Origin: Candidatus Parcubacteria bacterium
GTDB lineage: Bacteria > Patescibacteriota > Minisyncoccia > Phycocordibacterales > UBA918
DNA length: 64,000 nt
Direction of reading: 5' to 3'
NCBI GenBank assembly: GCA_046050355.1
Contig: JBJOPW010000001.1
Coordinates: 3,858 to 67,857 of the forward strand
This document shows, piece by piece, positions 45,871 to 54,826 of the stretch. Under the pieces are notes generated by a model, which was given only the letters and a program-made list of their open reading frames with translations, was not told the origin of the DNA and searched no databases. The translations under genes and the position numbers were made by a program. The stretch's first letter is position 1. Each line of letters opens with the position of its first letter.

Positions 45871-46638
45871 CTAGAATGCTTGTTCTGACCAATTGAGTGA
45901 ATGGACAGCCACACCTGTTTCAGTCATCGTTCCTTTAACTTCTGCGTAGGCAGCTTCTTTGAATGTTGTTTCGTCGCAGGTGGTAGTGACACCGGCGATC
46001 TGGCAGGTGCTTGAAGCTGTTACGAGCAGTGGTACAACGTGCCCACGGGTACCATTTTCAGTAAATACCAAATGCCATTTTGTATTATCAAACGGAGCCG
46101 GTACATTCTTCAACAGTTGTCCTTTGGTATCAAAACTAAACTCCCGTGCCTCGAGCACGTCACCCGTAGAGCAATTGATGGCAGTGATCACCCAGTCCTG
46201 TCCTACCACTTCCATAGTCACCACGGCATACCCACTTGGTGTACCAGTGGCAAATTTTGACATCACCATGAGCTCTACTTCAGTCGGGAGTTTGTGCACG
46301 TATTTCATTCTCAATTTATCGGGCGTTGCACTCTGACAAAGCAGTGGATCAGAGGCTCCTCCGGTGTTGAGGTCAGCAATAAGCTTGTCTTTTACGGTGC
46401 TGGTGAGTATCGTTTGGCTAAGGAGAATATTATCTGGTTTAACTTTACCATTGGTCTTGGTTTCTTCGAGCCAGGCGTTATAAAAGTCAAAAGCAACATC
46501 TAATGCATCGGGAAGTTCACGAACCTGATCGTTCTTAACGGTCAGTGATGTGCTGTACCACAAGAGTGAACAGAGCGCCAAAAGTCCCAAGACAAAGCCT
46601 GCATAAATAATATACTGCCGTTTGTTTACTGTTTGCAT
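45871..46638 (-). CDS. hypothetical N-terminally anchored secreted/membrane protein
   Basis: TM segment YIIYAGFVLGLLALCSLLWY, then a 220-aa domain with several Cys. Confidence 0.5.
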   Translation of the reverse strand: MQTVNKRQYIIYAGFVLGLLALCSLLWYSTSLTVKNDQVRELPDALDVAFDFYNAWLEETKTNGKVKPDNILLSQTILTSTVKDKLIADLNTGGASDPLLCQSATPDKLRMKYVHKLPTEVELMVMSKFATGTPSGYAVVTMEVVGQDWVITAINCSTGDVLEAREFSFDTKGQLLKNVPAPFDNTKWHLVFTENGTRGHVVPLLVTASSTCQIAGVTTTCDETTFKEAAYAEVKGTMTETGVAVHSLNWSEQAF

Positions 46639-46717
46639 AAGATTACTAGTATATCAGGTGATGACGAGGACGCTTGCATTTACTTACTAGTAGTTCTGTG
46701 GTCAGTGTGGCTACAAT

Positions 46718-47782
46718 TTGAAGGACCGCTTTGTCCATAGGCCAAGCATAAAAACCGGTACATGGTATACTCTAAAAATGTCACCGAAACAGAATTGGAG
46801 CACAAAGAACACTGAATTTCGAGGTAATGGAAAAAATATTCCGCTGCATAGGTACGTGCTTCTGGCTGTGCTTATGTCTACGTTCATGATTGTTTGGCAC
46901 TATGTTAAGTTAATTCACTCAACCGACCCAAATTCAGACAATGAATACTTTGCTGTGCCAAATACTGAACAACAAAGTCAGTTCGCATACTCAACAACAA
47001 GTAATTCAATCTATCGATCAAATGCACCTCAAAGTAACTTCCAAAAAGTTAGCGGTACGCTTATGTGCGGTAGTGAGGTTGTGTCTAATGACCCGTCATT
47101 AGAGCTGACAGATTGTTCATTCTTGAAAAATCGCGAAATTAGATTGTACTGCCCTGGTTCATATCGCGATGACAATCGGCTATATATTGCACCATCCGAG
47201 TCTTGTTTGGGCTGGTTTTCAATTGATGTTAACTCAATTAAAACTCTGTCATCATTGTACTTTGCTGATCGTGATAATGTATACACTGCAATAAATGGCA
47301 TTGACACTAATGTGATTAAAATTGTATCAACTGAACCTGAAACATTTAAAGTTTTAAGTGTTGGGTTTGCAAGTGCAAGCGACAAGTTGCTCTTTGCCTA
47401 TAATCTGATGGGACGAAGCAGCTCTCCTGTTATCCCTGATGCAGACCCAAGCACCTTTTCAATCATAAATAGTTACTACGCAAAGGATAGTAAACAGGTA
47501 TATTTTATCCGACCTCCGAAACATGAAGGATTTCCTGAAGTAACTGTTGCTAGTGCTATAGATGCTCAAACCGCGTCAATACTCTCTACTGAGTGGCCTG
47601 AATTAATAGCCGATGACACAAGTGTCTATCTCTACGGCCTCGCCGAGCAAGGTATTGATGCGCGTACATTTAGAATTTCATCAACTACAGGAGATGTTGC
47701 AATTGCAACAGATAACCTGCGAGAATACTTCATTAAACGAAGTGGTGACGACACAAGGCTCGTTCAAATCACTGTACGTTAA
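46718..47782 (+). CDS. DKNYY-repeat domain protein, N-terminally membrane anchored
   Basis: Repeated YFADRDNVYTAI / YAKDSKQVYFIR / VYLYGLAEQG motifs resemble DKNYY repeats. The gene is visibly AT-rich relative to the window. The start may be the Met at 46778. Confidence 0.5.
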   Translation: MKDRFVHRPSIKTGTWYTLKMSPKQNWSTKNTEFRGNGKNIPLHRYVLLAVLMSTFMIVWHYVKLIHSTDPNSDNEYFAVPNTEQQSQFAYSTTSNSIYRSNAPQSNFQKVSGTLMCGSEVVSNDPSLELTDCSFLKNREIRLYCPGSYRDDNRLYIAPSESCLGWFSIDVNSIKTLSSLYFADRDNVYTAINGIDTNVIKIVSTEPETFKVLSVGFASASDKLLFAYNLMGRSSSPVIPDADPSTFSIINSYYAKDSKQVYFIRPPKHEGFPEVTVASAIDAQTASILSTEWPELIADDTSVYLYGLAEQGIDARTFRISSTTGDVAIATDNLREYFIKRSGDDTRLVQITVR

Positions 47783-47989
47783 GGAAAAACACTAGCTACC
47801 TTTTCTTCGCAAATAGAAACAAGGAAATATATAATATTGATCTTCAACTACAAGGATCGTTTCTTATATAGCCAGTACAATGTGTAACGTAAACGAATCG
47901 GTTACCAGTCACTTAGTACATTTGTTCGCTTCGCTCCAAATATAATAAGTTAAGTGTTGATGACTCGTAAGAAGCAAGATTGATTGTTT

Positions 47990-48235
47990 CTCACTACTGG
48001 TCCTTACAGGACCAGTACACCTTGTGGTTATAATTATTTCGCTACGCTTATAATCTAACTCACAAGGTCTTCGATTCCCCCGTAACGGAATCGGTCACGC
48101 TCATGGGTTTTCATTCGCTTTGCTCATAAAACCTCATTCGCCCGACCCGGACTGTTCCGGCCCTAAAGGGGACCACGGAACAGTCTTTCGATTCCCCTAA
48201 GGTCTCACAATGACAACGACCGCAATGCATGCGCA
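47990..48235. repeat. hairpin-dense region beside tRNA-Ala(GGC) containing two inverted partial copies of the tRNA 3-prime end
   Basis: Stem-loops CTGGTCC-TTACA-GGACCAG, GGACTGTTCCG...CGGAACAGTC and GACCGCAATGC-ATGC-GCATTGCGGTC. The + strand carries TTCGATTCCCCC at about 48069 and TTCGATTCCCCTAAGGTC at about 48189, the reverse complement of the tRNA gene strand. Confidence 0.7.
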
Positions 48236-48252
48236 TTGCGGTCGGTCATATG

Positions 48253-48325
48253 TGGACCTTAGGGGAATCGAACCCCTCACCTCTTCCATGCCATGGAAGC
48301 GCTCTACCAAATGAGCTAAAGGCCC
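48253..48325 (-). tRNA. tRNA-Ala (anticodon GGC)
   Basis: Manual fold GGGCCTT / D-arm GCTC..GAGC / anticodon stem CTTCC-ATGGCAT-GGAAG / T-arm AGGGG-TTCGATT-CCCCT / AAGGTCC-A. G3:U70 Ala identity pair is present; no encoded CCA. Confidence 0.85.
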
Positions 48326-49860: not shown

Positions 49861-50346
49861 AACCGTATACTACCACTATCAGTCAGGGGGACAACTTGAC
49901 AGAGTGTCTATTTCAGTCGAGTTTACATGCAAAAAGGCCTTTTCAAGCTATTGACATCTCCCACTTTTATTTTGCTATACAGTATTTTCACACCCGACAA
50001 AGCAGGAGGAAAATTGAGTTGTGTTTTTGAAAAGTTATTGTGTGGTATAGATAGACATCGTCATCCCTTTACCAATTTGTTTCAAGTGAAAAGCGCCCAG
50101 GGTAAGCCATGGGCGCTTTCAGGCGGGTTAATTCCCGCAGGCACTAGTTACTGTTTGCTTCGATACAAGCAGCACGGGTCGTGTGAATGAACCCGTATTT
50201 GTCGACATAATATGTCTTTTGCATGTGTGTACTCCTCTGGTTAAAAAACGTAGTTCCCAGAGGCTCTTCAAATCTTTACATCGTATAAAGTAAGCCTCTG
50301 TAGAGGCAGTAAACCACAGGATTATTGATTTTGCAATTGCCAGAAA

Positions 50347-50643
50347 TCAGCTTTTAATTTTATTTCGGATTTGTGCAATCACGAGACCCAACCCCATAGC
50401 CATTAACGAAAATATAATCATTGCTGTATATGGATTACTAAATACATCTTGCGGCATTATATTGATTTTAGTGAGAGCTGTGTATGTCAGCGCTACAAAT
50501 GCAAAACCCCAAAAGAAAGATTGGATAATGTGACCAAATTCACTTTTAAATTCAAACCCACCTACGGCTAAAAGAAAGTACCCTGGAATAGAAAAAAGTA
50601 CTAGATGCAAAATCTCAAGATTTTCTAAGTTGAACATTTCCAT
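50347..50643 (-). CDS. hypothetical small membrane protein (3 TM), last gene of the defence-like operon
   Basis: Start moved to MEMFNLENL so that it abuts the stop of the upstream nuclease gene instead of overlapping it. Confidence 0.45.
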   Translation of the reverse strand: MEMFNLENLEILHLVLFSIPGYFLLAVGGFEFKSEFGHIIQSFFWGFAFVALTYTALTKINIMPQDVFSNPYTAMIIFSLMAMGLGLVIAQIRNKIKS

Positions 50644-50644
50644 A

Positions 50645-51814
50645 TTATTTATTACCTTTCGCAATATTATGTGGTCTACATAGCATCTGACAGTTCTTAA
50701 TATCAGTTGGCCCATTTTTGCTCCAGGCAGTTACATGATCAGCATCCATTTCTTTGAGCTGCCAAATTTTGTCTTTGTTTACATCATGACCAACTGCGCA
50801 AAGTGGACAGTTTGAGATTCCTGTCTTCTTCGCATCAGCAGTTTGCGCTTCATATACAACGCGTTTTGTTGATTCCTCAAAGACTCGTAGTTCAAGCAAT
50901 TTTGCATCCACTTCCCCGCCGAGGACATATTCAAAGATGCCGGATCGTTTTTTTACGAAACCATCAGCATAGAGTCGTTTAACTGCAGCAGACACAGCTA
51001 TAGGATCGTATTTGGTCTTGTGGTATGTCTTATACAGGCGGTGCCACTCGAGACCTTTCATTTCATTTTCAACGTCTGTAAACGTGGTCGAAATCCAATC
51101 AATTACCTTATTGAAATGCTTTTTTAGTTCGGTGATCTCAGTATCGTGACGATGGAGACTCATGTAGTTGTCTATTGCTCCATCAGACACCCAATCTAGA
51201 GTAGTTTCGAGGTATGCTTGACGTTTGATGTCTCCCTTTAGATACGCACTCCATTTCTGTACGTTCGCATTTTGACTGTTGCTAAACTCACTGCGTGCGA
51301 GCGTGACAAACGGACCGGAATACACCGCGTTAAGGATCTCTTGCTGTGTAAGTGGTACACCCGATATATTAATAGTGCGGAACCAGTCTTTGATCTCTGG
51401 TTCATCTCCTTCGCAGATATAGATATGGAGCTTTGTTTTGAGAATTTGCTCCCGTTGACTACTAGCCATACCACTATAGTATTGCTCGTGACCATTTTTA
51501 TCTTTCACTGCAAATTTGCCTGTGACAAAACGACCGATACTTGTGATGCGCTGTTGACCATCAAGTACGTCAAAGGTGTCTTTGCCAGTTTTGTTGAAAT
51601 AGAACAGACCAATTGGATAGCCTTTCAGTAGAGATTCGATGACTAAAATTTCTCGTTTACCTCCATCTTCTGCATATATGTAGTTGCGTTGATACTCAGG
51701 CTGTATGGTTAGCTTCCCAGATAAGCCAAAGAGGCCCTTACCTTCAAGTTCACTGTATTCAAATCCTTCGCTGATTTCGCGAATGGTAATGTCACTTCGT
51801 AAAAGGGTTTTCAT
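50645..51814 (-). CDS. DUF262 (ParB/Srx-like NTP-binding) - HNH endonuclease fusion, GmrSD-like
   Basis: N-terminal QPEYQRNYIY and VLDGQQRITSI (the DGQQR signature of DUF262). C-terminal CPLCA...DADHVTAWSKNGPTDIKNCQMLCRPHNIAKGNK is a canonical HNH motif with a zinc-binding Cys. Confidence 0.75.
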   Translation of the reverse strand: MKTLLRSDITIREISEGFEYSELEGKGLFGLSGKLTIQPEYQRNYIYAEDGGKREILVIESLLKGYPIGLFYFNKTGKDTFDVLDGQQRITSIGRFVTGKFAVKDKNGHEQYYSGMASSQREQILKTKLHIYICEGDEPEIKDWFRTINISGVPLTQQEILNAVYSGPFVTLARSEFSNSQNANVQKWSAYLKGDIKRQAYLETTLDWVSDGAIDNYMSLHRHDTEITELKKHFNKVIDWISTTFTDVENEMKGLEWHRLYKTYHKTKYDPIAVSAAVKRLYADGFVKKRSGIFEYVLGGEVDAKLLELRVFEESTKRVVYEAQTADAKKTGISNCPLCAVGHDVNKDKIWQLKEMDADHVTAWSKNGPTDIKNCQMLCRPHNIAKGNK

Positions 51815-51816
51815 AT

Positions 51817-53010
51817 TTACTTTTGTTTGTGTTTTATTAAGACTCTTTGGTATACCTTTTCACGTAAGCCATTTTTTACTAATACACCACTTGCATTTAA
51901 ATCGTATGTTCCAGGTTTTCCAAATTTGTCATAATACGCTTGTTTACACTCTGTAGATGTATATATTTTTGTTTTTTGTTTATATAAATCTTCATTTTCA
52001 CACATCCCAACAATTTCAAATTGTTCTGGGGAATACTTGTCTAAAAAACTAATCGGAACACCCATTACACCATTGTAATCACTCGGTATTGCGCTCGTAA
52101 ATGAAACTTCAAGTGCATCATAATTTTCATATTTATCATACGTACTTTTACCCTGCAATTTTTTGTTGAATTTTAAATTGTCAGCAATAGTCATTAATGA
52201 TAAAGGTCTATGTCTACGACCATGATCTAGATTAGTAAACCAACATGAATTTCCTAATCGCGTATAGTCACCTATATATCCAAGTCTAGCGGCCTTTTCT
52301 TTGTCTTCTTTTGCAATGTCTGCACCATTAGGTACTGCAAACACCATGTCGCTACCATTTCCAGTTGCGCCTAACCAAAGTTGATTTGCCTTAATTAAAG
52401 AAAAAATTTCTTTATATGTTATTGCGTTCATATTGCCAATAATAAGAACCTTTTTTTTATTCACAAAAAGTTGTGATACATACTCTCGAAACAAACTAAA
52501 AGGAGGATTGGTTACTACAATATCTGATTGTTTCAGTAACTCTACACATTCTGGACTACGAAAGTCACCGTCACCTTCCAATGGTGTCCATTCATTGTTC
52601 TTATTAGCTTTGAGTTGCTTCGCGATATCAGCGAGTGTAAAAGACCCATCACCATCAACATCGCCTACTTCGTTGATGATGAATTTGTTGGCTGTGATTT
52701 TTGGGCGACCTTTTACTGGTTCAAGGGTGAGATCATCACCAAAAAGTCCTATCTGGGTATTTGCAACCGGCGATGGTTTGTAACTTGTCGTAATAAGTGA
52801 CTTAAGTCCAAGACGTTTGAAATTGAGAACAAAGTATCTGAAAAAATTGCTTTCAAATGGGTCATCGCAGTTGCAATAGACTACTTTATCTTTGAAAGTG
52901 TTTTTGTCGTATTCGAGATAGGACTCAACTTCTTTTTGAATATCAGAAAACTGCGTATAGAACTCGTCGTTCTTTGCCTTTTTTGCCGCAGTGAGATTCT
53001 TATTTGCCAT
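51817..53010 (-). CDS. N6-adenine DNA methyltransferase, EcoRI-methylase family
   Basis: KNDEFYTQFSDI...KVVYCNCDDPFESNFFRYFVLNF..LGLKSLITTSY and DIVVTNPPFSLFREY parallel M.EcoRI closely, as I recall it. The start was moved to MANKNL. Confidence 0.8.
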   Translation of the reverse strand: MANKNLTAAKKAKNDEFYTQFSDIQKEVESYLEYDKNTFKDKVVYCNCDDPFESNFFRYFVLNFKRLGLKSLITTSYKPSPVANTQIGLFGDDLTLEPVKGRPKITANKFIINEVGDVDGDGSFTLADIAKQLKANKNNEWTPLEGDGDFRSPECVELLKQSDIVVTNPPFSLFREYVSQLFVNKKKVLIIGNMNAITYKEIFSLIKANQLWLGATGNGSDMVFAVPNGADIAKEDKEKAARLGYIGDYTRLGNSCWFTNLDHGRRHRPLSLMTIADNLKFNKKLQGKSTYDKYENYDALEVSFTSAIPSDYNGVMGVPISFLDKYSPEQFEIVGMCENEDLYKQKTKIYTSTECKQAYYDKFGKPGTYDLNASGVLVKNGLREKVYQRVLIKHKQK

Positions 53011-53011
53011 A

Positions 53012-53404
53012 CTATAGTATATTACTATATTCTGGATAATGCTCGGTGATGAGCTTTTGCCAAGCGGCAGTTTCATTCTTACTTGCGAGATCGGTCTTGC
53101 TATATACAAGCAAGACCGATACTCGATGTTCTTCAGTGTGCCAGGCTACAATGGTGCGGTTGCCTGATGTTTTAGCAGATTCTTTGGTACCAACGACGCG
53201 GAATTGCGTTTTGATAATTTTTATAGTTTCAGTTTCTGAAATAATTGTTGCCTTATCTGTCTGTAGTAATGCTTCAATACGCGTCAACTCGGCTATGATA
53301 GCGTCGAGTGTTACATCCCAGTGATGTTTGTATTTTTTAGCAAATGACTTGAGAAAATGGCTCGTTGCAAAGTCTTCTATCACTACTACAGCATTGCCAG
53401 ACAT
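53012..53404 (-). CDS. putative toxin (RelE/ParE-superfamily-like fold) partnered with the Panacea-domain antitoxin
   Basis: 130 aa. The C-terminal GNRTIVAWHTEEHRVSVLLVYSKTDL resembles the RelE/ParE tail. It sits immediately downstream of the antitoxin-like gene. Confidence 0.45.
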   Translation of the reverse strand: MSGNAVVVIEDFATSHFLKSFAKKYKHHWDVTLDAIIAELTRIEALLQTDKATIISETETIKIIKTQFRVVGTKESAKTSGNRTIVAWHTEEHRVSVLLVYSKTDLASKNETAAWQKLITEHYPEYSNIL

Positions 53405-53416
53405 ACCTAACCGTTG

Positions 53417-54154
53417 TTAGAACACTTTATCAGGGTCTTCTTGGGTAATAAGAGCGTATGGTATAAGCTCATCAATTTTGCATATCGTATACGGTAGTTG
53501 GTTGTGAGTGAAATTGACGATATCAATAGTCTTTTTATCTTTCCATTTTGTACCGATTTTTTTCATCAGTTTTACTTCGTCAGAACTGAGTGTAGATATC
53601 TTCTCATTAGTGTTTGATTCTGATTCACTAATAAGGAACATCGTACGACCTTTGTCGTCGGTCTTTCGATCAATGAGAATTTTTCCGGCATCTTCTAATT
53701 CGTCGATGGCACGGAAAAAAGCATCCGGCACTGGGCCATGTTCGATCTTGCGATACTGCATGCCACTCATGCTACTCATGGTATCGTAAAACCATGCAAA
53801 GTCAGCTAGGTAGAGTAACTTTGCTAGTTTGGTCTTCGGAATTTTGCTGTCAGGAGAAAGATTCATTCGCAAGTACGTCAGTATCATATGCTTGTACTTT
53901 TGGATATTGGGAATATTTCCTGATAGCAAGTCATCGACGCTCAGTGCGTACAGATTAGCTAGTTTCTTCACTTCGTCAGTATCGAGTTTTTGTTTGCCTG
54001 ATTCAACAGCAGCGTAGGTTGGGCGAGAGACACTGATGGCATTTGCGACTTCTTCTTGTGACAGCTTATTTTTAATACGCAAATCTTTGAGAATCCTCTG
54101 CATATACATGGTCATATGACCAAGTATATGCAGATATGTAAAAAAGTCAAGCAA
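53417..54154 (-). CDS. HTH-XRE plus Panacea (DUF4065/SocA-like) domain antitoxin
   Basis: N-terminal LKDLRIKNKLSQEEVANAISVSRPTYAAVESGKQ is a Cro/C1-type HTH. The C-terminal KLAKLLYLADFAWFYDT...IEHGPVP matches the Panacea domain. The start may be the Met at 54103. Confidence 0.65.
   Translation of the reverse strand: MLDFFTYLHILGHMTMYMQRILKDLRIKNKLSQEEVANAISVSRPTYAAVESGKQKLDTDEVKKLANLYALSVDDLLSGNIPNIQKYKHMILTYLRMNLSPDSKIPKTKLAKLLYLADFAWFYDTMSSMSGMQYRKIEHGPVPDAFFRAIDELEDAGKILIDRKTDDKGRTMFLISESESNTNEKISTLSSDEVKLMKKIGTKWKDKKTIDIVNFTHNQLPYTICKIDELIPYALITQEDPDKVF
54110..54123. promoter_or_regulatory. perfect palindrome TGGTCATATGACCA at the 5-prime end of the antitoxin gene; candidate autoregulatory operator
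   Basis: Read directly. Confidence 0.4.
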
Positions 54155-54265
54155 AAAATGTCAGAAAACTGACAAAATTAGATTTTATTGGCAGAATAGC
54201 AGTTAATCAATAGATAAAGTTTGTAGGCACAGAGACACCTAGTATGAGTGATTTAAGAGGTATAA

Positions 54266-54826
54266 CTAGGCAAACTTCATCGCTTTGGTCACAACCGGCT
54301 TCAAATACTGTTGGTAGCGGGGGTTGGCGGGGGTGAGTTTGTAGTTGATACGATTGAGGACTATCTGGTACTGGCGGCCGACTTTACCCCGGACGGTGAT
54401 GGTGAGTTCGAGCTCACTCTTCTTGCCCGCTGGCAGGGTCACATACCGCAGGGTGCCGATACTCGTCTCCGTGAGGGCACGCGTGCGGATAGCGACCGAG
54501 GCGCTTACGATACTGCTCTCCCCTGTTCCTTCGATCTGGTACATAAAGCCGGCGACAGTCTTGCCCGAGGCGATACTGAGTGGAATAGAGACAGGTGCGC
54601 GTTTGGTTGTCAGTTCGAGGATGATGCGGAATTCTCCCACGGCTTTGTCTGGGCAGTCTTCGACTTTGGTGCGGCTAAAGCGAAATTTGTTGCCTGCGAT
54701 GCGTCCCGCAAGGTACTCGTCGATTCCCTCACGCTTTTTGGCGTCGACTAAGTCGGCCTGGAGCGACTTCAGCTGCGCTTTCATATTGGATAATGAGCTA
54801 CGTTCAGCTCTGGTTAGCTTCTTCAT
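54266..54826 (-). CDS. hypothetical protein
   Basis: 186-aa ORF with a basic N-terminus and no motifs. Confidence 0.45.
   Translation of the reverse strand: MKKLTRAERSSLSNMKAQLKSLQADLVDAKKREGIDEYLAGRIAGNKFRFSRTKVEDCPDKAVGEFRIILELTTKRAPVSIPLSIASGKTVAGFMYQIEGTGESSIVSASVAIRTRALTETSIGTLRYVTLPAGKKSELELTITVRGKVGRQYQIVLNRINYKLTPANPRYQQYLKPVVTKAMKFA

What the first reader, a model, noticed from the sequence alone, without database searches (positions are those of the whole stretch)
50347..54154. AT-rich five-gene island: Panacea antitoxin, toxin, EcoRI-family m6A methyltransferase, DUF262-HNH nuclease and a small membrane protein; candidate novel R-M or modification-sensing defence system
Five co-directional, tightly packed or overlapping genes, visibly lower in GC than the flanks. 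The cognate nuclease of a clearly M.EcoRI-like methyltransferase is not an EcoRI-like PD-(D/E)XK enzyme. Instead it is a fusion of a DUF262 (ParB-like NTP-binding, GmrSD/SspE/BrxU-type) domain to a canonical zinc-HNH nuclease. DUF262 nucleases are normally modification-dependent or modification-sensing (type IV, BREX, PT systems), so tight coupling to an m6A methyltransferase is unusual. It suggests either a non-canonical Type II pair or a system where methylation status is read by the ParB-like module. The operon ends with a 3-TM mini-protein and starts with a toxin-antitoxin pair, so it may be an integrated multi-layer defence cassette.
Basis: partly seen in the sequence, partly recalled or inferred. 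Interest (0 to 1): 0.75.

Follow-up and report, generated by a model that had tools for sequence, protein, structure and literature searches.

The report
Common restriction-modification pair plus toxin-antitoxin pair
This AT-rich island joins two separate, horizontally acquired modules in one operon: a widespread restriction-modification pair (an EcoRI-family adenine methyltransferase with a ParB-like/HNH nuclease) and a toxin-antitoxin pair, so it is a new example of known kinds rather than a new five-gene defence system.

Summary
Five tightly packed minus-strand genes lie in a low-GC stretch (0.31-0.43 against about 0.50-0.55 in the flanks), and every domain call was confirmed.

The EcoRI-family methyltransferase and the DUF262-HNH nuclease form a real two-gene module. 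The methyltransferase sits directly upstream of the nuclease in 135 of 138 assessable loci, across many phyla, small plasmids, phages and viral contigs. The pairing still holds at 35% nuclease identity.

The pair is not new. The nuclease matches a PADLOC "Type II restriction enzyme" profile over its full length (E 1.4e-83). The methyltransferase is 46% identical to the methyltransferase next to the EcoRI enzyme on an E. coli plasmid.

The HTH-Panacea antitoxin and the 130-aa toxin (RelE/HigB fold) are an independent module. They occur elsewhere without any restriction-modification genes. The small membrane ORF has no counterpart in 104 related loci.

In this window all five genes appear to share one promoter with a palindromic operator, but that arrangement is local.

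Still open: the recognition site, whether the conserved ParB-like NTP pocket makes cutting NTP-dependent, and why the nuclease is more conserved than its methyltransferase.

The parts
54123..54150 (-). Sigma-70-like promoter, TTGACT-16 nt-TATACT, upstream of the antitoxin gene.
   Evidence: This is the joint best consensus match in the region, 10 of 12 positions. The sequence was read. The total number of promoter-like hits in the region is no higher than in shuffled sequence, so the position is suggestive only.
54097..54134 (.). Inverted repeat with 19-nt arms, 95% complementary. It overlaps the -10 box and the first in-frame ATG codons. Probable operator for the HTH antitoxin.
   Evidence: Inverted repeat I3. 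The operator role is inferred, not shown.
53417..54115 (-). Antitoxin and repressor: an N-terminal Xre-type HTH fused to a Panacea (SocA-like) domain.
   Evidence: Pfam HTH_3 at 6e-13 and SocA_Panacea at 4.9e-13. Homologs of 227-234 aa sit directly upstream of toxin homologs in three independent contexts.
53012..53404 (-). 130-aa toxin with a RelE/HigB-type fold.
   Evidence: No Pfam family passes threshold; RelE scores only E 0.1. The AlphaFold2 model has pLDDT 91 and pTM 0.86. The top Foldseek PDB hits are RelE 1wmi_A (probability 1.00, TM 0.74 normalised to the target), HigB2, HigB, YoeB and YafQ. A profile search of PDB sequences finds only HigB-2, at E 1.3. About 170 homologs exist.
51817..53010 (-). 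EcoRI-family N6-adenine DNA methyltransferase, 397 aa: the modification (self-marking) enzyme.
   Evidence: Pfam EcoRI_methylase at 2.3e-123 over the full profile. PADLOC MTase_II at 4.4e-102. NPPF motif near-invariant. 46% identity (152 of 334 residues, E 1e-82) to the methyltransferase next to 'type-2 restriction enzyme EcoRI' on plasmid NZ_CP103650.1.
50645..51814 (-). Restriction nuclease, 389 aa: a ParB-like DUF262 NTP-binding domain, a helical middle region and a C-terminal zinc-ribbon HNH domain.
50347..50643 (-). Orphan 98-aa ORF with two to three hydrophobic segments. Not a conserved part of either module.
   Evidence: No hit in Pfam, PADLOC, NCBIfam or PHROGs. No tblastn hit in the 85 loci or the 58 viral loci. 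None of 104 loci has a small multi-TM ORF after the nuclease.
50294..50307 (-). Terminator-like hairpin 40 nt after the last ORF.
   Evidence: A second GC-rich hairpin at 50090-50119 is inverted repeat I7.
49982..54288 (.). Approximate extent of the variable, low-GC segment.
   Evidence: DNA similarity to related metagenome contigs stops at about 49981 and resumes at about 54289. In relative L154 the same site, between homologs of the flanking genes, holds different genes: a RhuM/Fic-like protein and RNase H. GC profile. No flanking direct repeats above chance.

Best explanation
The island is a composite of two independent mobile modules that in this genome are read as one operon.

Module 1 is a type II toxin-antitoxin pair. 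A RelE/HigB-fold toxin is neutralised by a Panacea-domain antitoxin. The antitoxin's Xre-type HTH probably represses the shared promoter through the 19-nt palindrome.

Module 2 is a classical, modification-blocked restriction-modification pair.
- The EcoRI-family methyltransferase puts N6-methyl groups on adenines in its target site on host DNA.
- The DUF262-HNH nuclease attacks DNA in which that site is unmethylated. It cuts with its zinc-ribbon HNH (beta-beta-alpha-metal) active site.
- Its conserved ParB-like DGQQR pocket probably binds or hydrolyses a nucleotide to license or reset cleavage, as in BrxU, GmrSD and SspE.

What is shown: gene content, domain identity, motif conservation, the strict methyltransferase-then-nuclease coupling and its horizontal spread.

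What is inferred: that methylation blocks cutting, NTP involvement, the recognition site, and co-transcription and autoregulation.

The small membrane ORF is most likely an unrelated passenger or not a gene.
For: Coupling.
- The methyltransferase lies directly upstream of the nuclease, on the same strand, in 79 of 85 genome and metagenome loci and 56 of 58 viral contigs. Five of the eight exceptions are contig edges.
- The methyltransferase stop and the nuclease start are within 6 nt in 58 of 76 loci.
- Searches seeded with the methyltransferase find the nuclease downstream.
- The pairing persists at 35% nuclease identity.
- The pair travels alone on 9-11 kb plasmids and in Flavobacterium phage laban6-1, gp007/gp008. 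This is the behaviour of a self-sufficient restriction-modification unit.

Family membership.
- Full-length PADLOC REase_II and MTase_II hits.
- 46% identity to the methyltransferase that partners the EcoRI enzyme.

Active sites. All catalytic and NTP-pocket residues are invariant.

Logic. A nuclease that required the neighbouring enzyme's methyl mark would kill its own host.

Independence of the toxin-antitoxin pair. Three of three toxin-homolog contexts have an HTH-Panacea gene immediately upstream and no restriction-modification genes.

Operon features. Promoter, palindrome and terminator-like hairpin, and gaps of 1-12 nt between genes.
Against: - No biochemical or methylome data were available.
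- The recognition site could not be inferred. AATT-core palindromes are not specifically depleted in the window or in 84 host loci.
- Three intact nucleases lack a neighbouring methyltransferase: L022, L059 and L115. This is unexpected for a toxic restriction enzyme unless the methyltransferase lies elsewhere in those genomes.
- The nuclease is more conserved than the methyltransferase (77% against 61% mean pairwise identity). It does not co-diverge with the two methyltransferase clades. Type II restriction enzymes usually evolve faster than their methyltransferases.
- A conserved NTP pocket is not a feature of canonical Type II enzymes.
- The promoter and terminator are consensus matches only.
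Confidence: 0.75

Rival explanations
1. Modification-sensing restriction in the manner of SspE. The ParB-like domain of the nuclease reads the m6A mark on host DNA, and this reading tunes NTPase activity and nuclease licensing. Methylation would not simply block cutting at a fixed site. The pair would then be an NTP-dependent restriction-modification class distinct from Type II.
For: - The DGQQR pocket is invariant.
- The closest solved folds are BrxU and SspE.
- SspE is a DUF262 nuclease functionally tied to a host modification module (PMC10952713).
- The nuclease is unusually conserved along its whole length and does not track the methyltransferase clades.
- No site-specific palindrome avoidance was detected.
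Against: - PADLOC files the family under Type II restriction enzymes.
- The C-terminal nuclease is a classical HNH, not the DUF1524 domain of SspE and GmrSD.
- Nothing here shows that the DUF262 domain contacts methylated DNA.
Confidence: 0.15
2. An integrated five-gene, multi-layer defence cassette. The toxin-antitoxin pair, the restriction-modification pair and the membrane protein would depend on each other functionally. For example, the antitoxin would act as the control protein of the restriction-modification genes, and the membrane protein as an effector.
For: - Gaps of 1-12 nt between genes, and a single promoter-like site with a palindrome.
- The HTH weakly matches the PADLOC control-protein profile at 1.3e-6.
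- The same toxin-antitoxin and restriction-modification modules also co-occur in L006.
Against: - The toxin-antitoxin pair accompanies the restriction-modification pair in 1 of the 143 nuclease-seeded loci, and there in a different gene order with a DUF4145 gene between them.
- The toxin-antitoxin pair stands alone in three of three other contexts.
- The membrane ORF occurs in none of 104 loci.
- The control-protein match is a generic Xre HTH similarity.
Confidence: 0.07
3. The nuclease is a modification-dependent (Type IV, GmrSD-like) enzyme aimed at foreign modified DNA. The methyltransferase would be an unrelated neighbour, or would protect against something else.
For: - The DUF262 N-terminal domain is shared with GmrSD and BrxU.
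- Three intact nucleases stand alone.
- The HNH domain resembles those of McrA and TagI.
Against: - The nuclease is coupled to one methyltransferase family, in a fixed order, in 135 of 138 loci and down to 35% identity. Chance neighbourhood cannot explain this.
- There is no DUF1524/GmrSD_C domain.
- Type IV enzymes are not normally linked to a dedicated methyltransferase.
Confidence: 0.03

Closest known systems
Type II restriction-modification families as catalogued in PADLOC-DB (REase_II profile PDLC03418 with MTase_II profile PDLC03297)
   Same: Both proteins match these profiles over their full length, at 1.4e-83 and 4.4e-102. The layout is two separate genes with the methyltransferase first. 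The pair is mobile on plasmids and phages.
   Different: The tools do not show which characterised enzyme seeded the profile or what site it recognises. The nuclease carries a ParB-like NTP-binding domain, which is not part of the textbook Type II mechanism (Mg2+ only, no nucleotide).
EcoRI restriction-modification system (M.EcoRI with R.EcoRI)
   Same: The methyltransferase is 46% identical to the one beside 'type-2 restriction enzyme EcoRI' on plasmid NZ_CP103650.1. It shares the NPPF motif and the conserved N-terminal segments.
   Different: The nuclease is unrelated to R.EcoRI, which from my own knowledge is a PD-(D/E)XK enzyme. Gene order is reversed: the methyltransferase comes first here, the nuclease first in EcoRI. 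The methyltransferase has a divergent stretch at about residues 70-145 and about 60 extra C-terminal residues. Target GAATTC is not established.
GmrSD / BrxU Type IV restriction enzymes
   Different: The C-terminal domain is a classical zinc-ribbon HNH (PF01844), not DUF1524/GmrSD_C. The protein is 389 aa, against about 580 aa for BrxU. It is coupled to a methyltransferase, whereas those enzymes attack modified DNA and have no cognate methyltransferase.
SspABCD-SspE (phosphorothioate-sensing defence)
   Different: The modification here is base methylation by a single enzyme, not backbone phosphorothioation by four proteins. The nuclease domain is HNH rather than DUF1524.
Panacea-antitoxin toxin-antitoxin pairs, and HigBA/RelBE pairs
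   Same: The antitoxin has the SocA_Panacea domain. The gene order is antitoxin then toxin. The toxin has a RelE/HigB fold.
   Different: The toxin family (about 170 proteins) belongs to no Pfam family. The antitoxin carries an added Xre HTH. In this window the pair is fused into one operon with a restriction-modification pair.

Membership tests
Type II restriction-modification system | Separate, adjacent methyltransferase and nuclease genes that are inherited together | tested here: met
   135 of 138 assessable loci; gap of 6 nt or less in 58 of 76.
Type II restriction-modification system | Sequence membership in a catalogued Type II nuclease family and methyltransferase family | tested here: met
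   PADLOC REase_II PDLC03418 at 1.4e-83 over 7-372 of 372 positions; MTase_II at 4.4e-102.
Type II restriction-modification system | Cleavage at or near a fixed sequence, blocked by the cognate methylation, needing only Mg2+ | not testable with these tools
   No biochemical data. Site inference from palindrome avoidance failed. The invariant DGQQR pocket hints at nucleotide use.
EcoRI_methylase family (PF13651) | Full-length profile match and the N6-adenine catalytic motif | tested here: met
   E 2.3e-123 over 1-345 of 345 positions. NPPF near-invariant. 46% identity to the EcoRI-partner methyltransferase.
EcoRI_methylase family (PF13651) | Methylation of GAATTC | tested here: inconclusive
   GAATTC observed/expected is 0.60 in the window (8 against 13.4) and 0.84 in the pooled loci. 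This is no stronger than the general avoidance of palindromes.
GmrSD / BrxU Type IV enzymes | N-terminal DUF262 with a DGQQR nucleotide pocket | tested here: met
   Pfam GmrSD_N at 1.6e-20. D85-R89 invariant. BrxU is the top structural hit.
GmrSD / BrxU Type IV enzymes | C-terminal DUF1524/GmrSD_C nuclease domain | tested here: not met
   No PF07510 hit. The C-terminus is PF01844 HNH with a four-cysteine zinc ribbon.
GmrSD / BrxU Type IV enzymes | Stand-alone, with no cognate methyltransferase | tested here: not met
   A methyltransferase lies upstream in 135 of 138 loci.
Panacea-type toxin-antitoxin pair | Antitoxin with the SocA_Panacea domain next to a conserved partner gene | tested here: met
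   PF13274 at 4.9e-13. The same two-gene arrangement occurs in L088, L089/ERZ1426739, L090 and L006.
Panacea-type toxin-antitoxin pair | The partner is toxic and is neutralised by the antitoxin | not testable with these tools
   Only the fold is known: RelE/HigB-like.
RelE/ParE toxin superfamily | Sequence-profile membership | tested here: not met
   Pfam RelE at E 0.1, 13.3 bits against a cut-off of 27. Profile against PDB: HigB-2 at E 1.3.
RelE/ParE toxin superfamily | RelE-type fold | tested here: met
   Model pLDDT 91. Foldseek 1wmi_A probability 1.00, TM 0.74 normalised to the target. The hit list is dominated by RelE, HigB, YoeB and YafQ.
C-protein-controlled restriction-modification system | A small stand-alone HTH control protein conserved with the restriction-modification genes | tested here: not met
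   The HTH is fused to a Panacea domain. It accompanies the restriction-modification pair in only 1 of the 143 nuclease-seeded loci.

The most novel reading that the evidence does not exclude
The EcoRI-family methyltransferase / DUF262-HNH pairs may form a large, uncharacterised class of nucleotide-dependent restriction-modification systems. In this reading the ParB-like switch senses m6A status and licenses the HNH nuclease, rather than acting as a plain Type II enzyme. This could explain three observations: the nuclease is conserved at about 77% across phyla; it is indifferent to which methyltransferase clade it sits beside; and the junction between the two genes acts as a docking site for other defence genes.
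Probability: 0.2. Interest if true: 0.6.

Novelty: new member of a known kind. Interest (0 to 1): 0.3.

Why it matters
For genome annotation, this is a clear example. An apparently exotic five-gene "system" resolves into two ordinary mobile modules that happen to be fused into one transcription unit.

The restriction-modification pair is among the more widely transferred defence modules. Public records still label it only "DUF262 domain-containing protein" or "hypothetical", and I found no paper on its biochemistry. A methylome and a cleavage assay on one cultured carrier would therefore annotate thousands of genes. They would also show whether a ParB-like nucleotide switch can operate inside a classical restriction-modification system.

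In CPR/Patescibacteria genomes such as this one, the pair is a likely barrier to phage and DNA uptake.

Tried and rejected
1. Inferring the recognition site from palindrome avoidance.
- In the window only GATC stands out (observed/expected 0.63, z -6.2).
- In 1.23 Mb from 84 carrier loci only the generic GGCC and GATC depletion appears. AATT, GAATTC, CAATTG and AAATTT are at 0.84-0.97.
- I rejected this as uninformative.

2. Finding a named or characterised relative.
- PDB sequence searches gave only BrxU at E 0.27 for the nuclease and nothing for the methyltransferase.
- NCBIfam gave nothing for either.
- Source names in protein clusters are only "DUF262 domain-containing", "HNH endonuclease" or "hypothetical".
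- The afdb50 fold library was unavailable.

3. Literature. Seven full-text searches and ten papers read found no description of a DUF262-HNH nuclease paired with an EcoRI-family methyltransferase. They gave only the general statement that COG1479/DUF262 fuses to HNH and is linked to restriction-modification systems (PMC3632139), and that COG1479 is widely transferred but uncharacterised (PMC6287321).

4. A conserved third gene. No downstream ORF family is shared, and none of 104 loci has a small membrane ORF.

5. Flanking direct repeats or att sites. Only short matches at chance level were found. The two tRNA-Ala genes are 1.4-2 kb away and do not abut the island.

6. The antitoxin as a restriction-modification control protein. 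Rejected because it is not conserved with the pair.

Full report
**What is in the sequence**

Five minus-strand ORFs occupy 50347-54154. They lie inside a stretch where GC falls to 0.31-0.43, against about 0.50-0.55 on both sides.

- ORF 53417-54154 has an Xre-type HTH (HTH_3, 6e-13) followed by SocA_Panacea (4.9e-13).
- ORF 51817-53109 matches EcoRI_methylase over the whole profile (2.3e-123).
- ORF 50645-51814 has GmrSD_N/DUF262 (1.6e-20) and HNH (2.7e-6).
- The 130-aa ORF and the small last ORF hit nothing in Pfam, NCBIfam or PHROGs beyond weak matches.

The window comes from a Candidatus Parcubacteria MAG. All three proteins searched have 100% identical entries named "hypothetical protein RLZZ360_59/60/61".

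**Corrected gene starts and operon signals**

The methyltransferase starts at ATG 53010 (397 aa; homologs are 390-400 aa).

The antitoxin most likely starts at one of the ATGs at 54115, 54109 or 54103, for two reasons. Homologs are 227-234 aa. The listed TTG start lies just upstream of, and partly overlaps, the -35 box of a TTGACT-16-TATACT promoter-like site at 54150-54123.

An inverted repeat with 19-nt arms (54097-54134, 95% complementary) spans the -10 box and these ATGs. I read it as the operator of the HTH antitoxin. That reading is an inference.

With these starts the gaps between genes are 12, 1, 2 and 1 nt. A terminator-like hairpin follows the last ORF at 50307-50294. The five genes therefore look like one transcription unit in this genome.

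**The methyltransferase-nuclease pair is a real, conserved, mobile module**

- The nuclease has more than 8000 relatives at the 90%-identity cluster level, many at 70-79% identity. They come from Patescibacteria, Saccharimonadales, Gammaproteobacteria and others.
- A scan of species-representative genomes found at least 591 carriers. They span Bacteroidota, Chloroflexota, Verrucomicrobiota, Bacillota, Desulfobacterota, Planctomycetota and many CPR phyla.
- In 85 loci the EcoRI-family methyltransferase is upstream on the same strand in 79. Four of the six exceptions are contig edges.
- In 58 viral contigs it is upstream in 56, and one exception is a contig edge.
- The methyltransferase stop and the nuclease start are within 6 nt in 58 of 76 loci.
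- Starting from methyltransferase homologs gives the same picture.
- A nuclease homolog at only 35% identity still has an EcoRI_methylase gene upstream.
- The pair occurs on 9-11 kb plasmids of Moraxella, Pediococcus, Apilactobacillus and Lactiplantibacillus, on Enterococcus faecium megaplasmids and on actinobacterial plasmids. It also occurs as gp007/gp008 of Flavobacterium phage laban6-1.

**But it is not a new kind of system**

- The nuclease matches the PADLOC profile PDLC03418, labelled "Type II restriction enzyme", over positions 7-372 of 372 at E 1.4e-83. The methyltransferase matches MTase_II at 4.4e-102. From my own knowledge these PADLOC restriction-modification profiles derive from REBASE sequences. 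I could not see which enzyme seeded this one.
- The methyltransferase is 46% identical (152 of 334 residues, E 1e-82) to the methyltransferase beside "type-2 restriction enzyme EcoRI" on E. coli plasmid NZ_CP103650.1. It is a true EcoRI-family enzyme with a non-homologous partner nuclease and the opposite gene order.
- ParB-like COG1479/DUF262 domains fused to HNH and linked to restriction-modification systems were noted in PMC3632139.
- COG1479 was flagged as widely transferred but uncharacterised in PMC6287321.
- I found no paper on the biochemistry of this particular pair.

**Anatomy of the nuclease**

The following are invariant in 47 homologs: the QPEYQR and DGQQR motifs of the ParB-like nucleotide pocket, four zinc-ribbon cysteines, and the HNH residues D359-H360, N374 and H382-N383.

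An AlphaFold2 model (pLDDT 77, pTM 0.46) finds these best matches:
- ParB/Noc CTPase domains and sulfiredoxin

There is no DUF1524/GmrSD_C domain. It is therefore not a GmrSD-family member, although it may share that family's nucleotide switch.

**Most likely mechanism**

Because the nuclease is tied to one methyltransferase family in a fixed order, the simplest reading is ordinary host-dependent restriction. A nuclease that depended on the neighbouring enzyme's mark would be suicidal. So the methyltransferase marks self DNA with m6A, and the nuclease cuts DNA that lacks the mark.

The conserved nucleotide pocket suggests that cutting is licensed by nucleotide binding or hydrolysis. That step is inferred from BrxU, GmrSD and SspE (PMC10952713).

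I could not infer the site. The window shows only GATC depletion (0.63), and 84 carrier loci show only generic palindrome avoidance.

**The other three genes**

The HTH-Panacea gene and the 130-aa gene form an independent toxin-antitoxin module. Three unrelated contexts of toxin homologs each have an HTH_3 + SocA_Panacea gene of 227-234 aa immediately upstream and no restriction-modification genes nearby.

The toxin model is confident (pLDDT 91, pTM 0.86). Its best structural matches are RelE, HigB2, HigB, YoeB and YafQ. Sequence profiles barely detect this relationship.

Among the 143 nuclease-seeded loci (85, 58), the toxin-antitoxin and restriction-modification modules co-occur only in L006. 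There the order is different: methyltransferase, nuclease, a DUF4145 gene, another gene, then the toxin-antitoxin pair.

The 98-aa hydrophobic ORF has no counterpart anywhere. None of 104 loci has a small membrane ORF after the nuclease.

So the "five-gene integrated cassette" is a local fusion, not a system.

**The island**

DNA similarity to related contigs ends at about 49981 and resumes at about 54289. A relative (L154) carries different genes at the same site, a RhuM/Fic-like protein and RNase H. The site is therefore a variable region. No att-like repeats were found.

**Points that remain odd**

- The nuclease is more conserved than its methyltransferase in 96% of locus pairs (77% against 61% mean identity).
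- Two methyltransferase clades, about 50% identical to each other, carry nucleases that are no more different between clades than within them. The loci were chosen by similarity to the nuclease, which biases this comparison somewhat.
- Three intact nucleases have no adjacent methyltransferase.
- In 16 of 76 loci other genes are embedded between the methyltransferase and the nuclease: RhuM, DUF2130, an OLD-like ATPase, PIN_8, Bro-N, AntA, MUG113 and Dam. A more distant locus has an HNH_3 homing-type gene there.

These features keep alive a minority reading in which the pair is a nucleotide-dependent, methylation-sensing class rather than plain Type II.

**Verdict**

This is a new member of known kinds, with modest interest (0.3).

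Noticed in passing
Loci L001-L085 compared with window 50645-53010: The nuclease is more conserved than its methyltransferase in 96% of locus pairs (mean 77% against 61% identity; r = 0.22). Two methyltransferase clades, about 50% identical to each other, carry nucleases that differ no more between clades (0.768) than within them (0.772). This is the reverse of the usual Type II pattern.
   Followed up: partly
L013, L016, L018, L020, L023, L028, L029, L035, L036, L045, L057, L060, L066, L076, L081, L082, L159: The junction between the methyltransferase and nuclease genes is an insertion hotspot. It holds 0.3-3.1 kb of same-strand genes: RhuM (at least six loci), DUF2130, an OLD-like AAA_15/TOPRIM ATPase, PIN_8, Bro-N, AntA, MUG113, Dam, and an HNH_3/NUMOD4 gene.
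   Followed up: partly
L022:4454-5623, L059:1095-2264, L115:4001-5176: Three intact nucleases keep the DGQQR, CxxC, DH and HN motifs but have no adjacent EcoRI-family methyltransferase. Their upstream neighbours are RhuM (L022) and a Shedu SduA_C protein (L059). L115 has a 1.2 kb stretch upstream with no ORF of 100 aa or more.
   Followed up: partly
Whole window: GATC is clearly under-represented: 177 observed against 281 expected, z -6.2. It is the strongest of all 4-bp palindromes. This hints at a GATC-specific restriction system somewhere in this genome, or in its past.
   Followed up: no
window 46500-48000, ORF 46718-47782 (+), tRNA-Ala(ggc) 48252-48325 (-): A second low-GC stretch (0.39-0.41) holds a 354-aa DKNYY-family ORF next to a tRNA-Ala gene. 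It may be another acquired segment.
   Followed up: no
window 54097-54150: The -10 box ends at 54123 and the first in-frame ATG is at 54115. The antitoxin mRNA would therefore be leaderless or nearly so. The 19-nt-arm palindrome covers both features.
   Followed up: partly
L006:1869-6979: A Nomurabacteria contig carries the same restriction-modification pair (75% and 79% identity) and the same toxin-antitoxin pair (68% and 58%). The order is permuted, with a DUF4145 gene after the nuclease. The two modules may travel together in some CPR lineages.
   Followed up: partly
L154:2241-6073 and L155:1-2817: In relatives of this genome the same chromosomal site, between homologs of the 186-aa and 144-aa flanking genes, holds a RhuM/Fic-like gene and RNase H instead of the island.
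   Followed up: partly
window 51817-53010 compared with L160:864-1844: The methyltransferase has about 60 extra C-terminal residues compared with the 326-aa methyltransferase that partners EcoRI. It also has a divergent stretch at about residues 70-145. Among 65 family members the least conserved blocks are residues 200-240 and 320-397.
   Followed up: no
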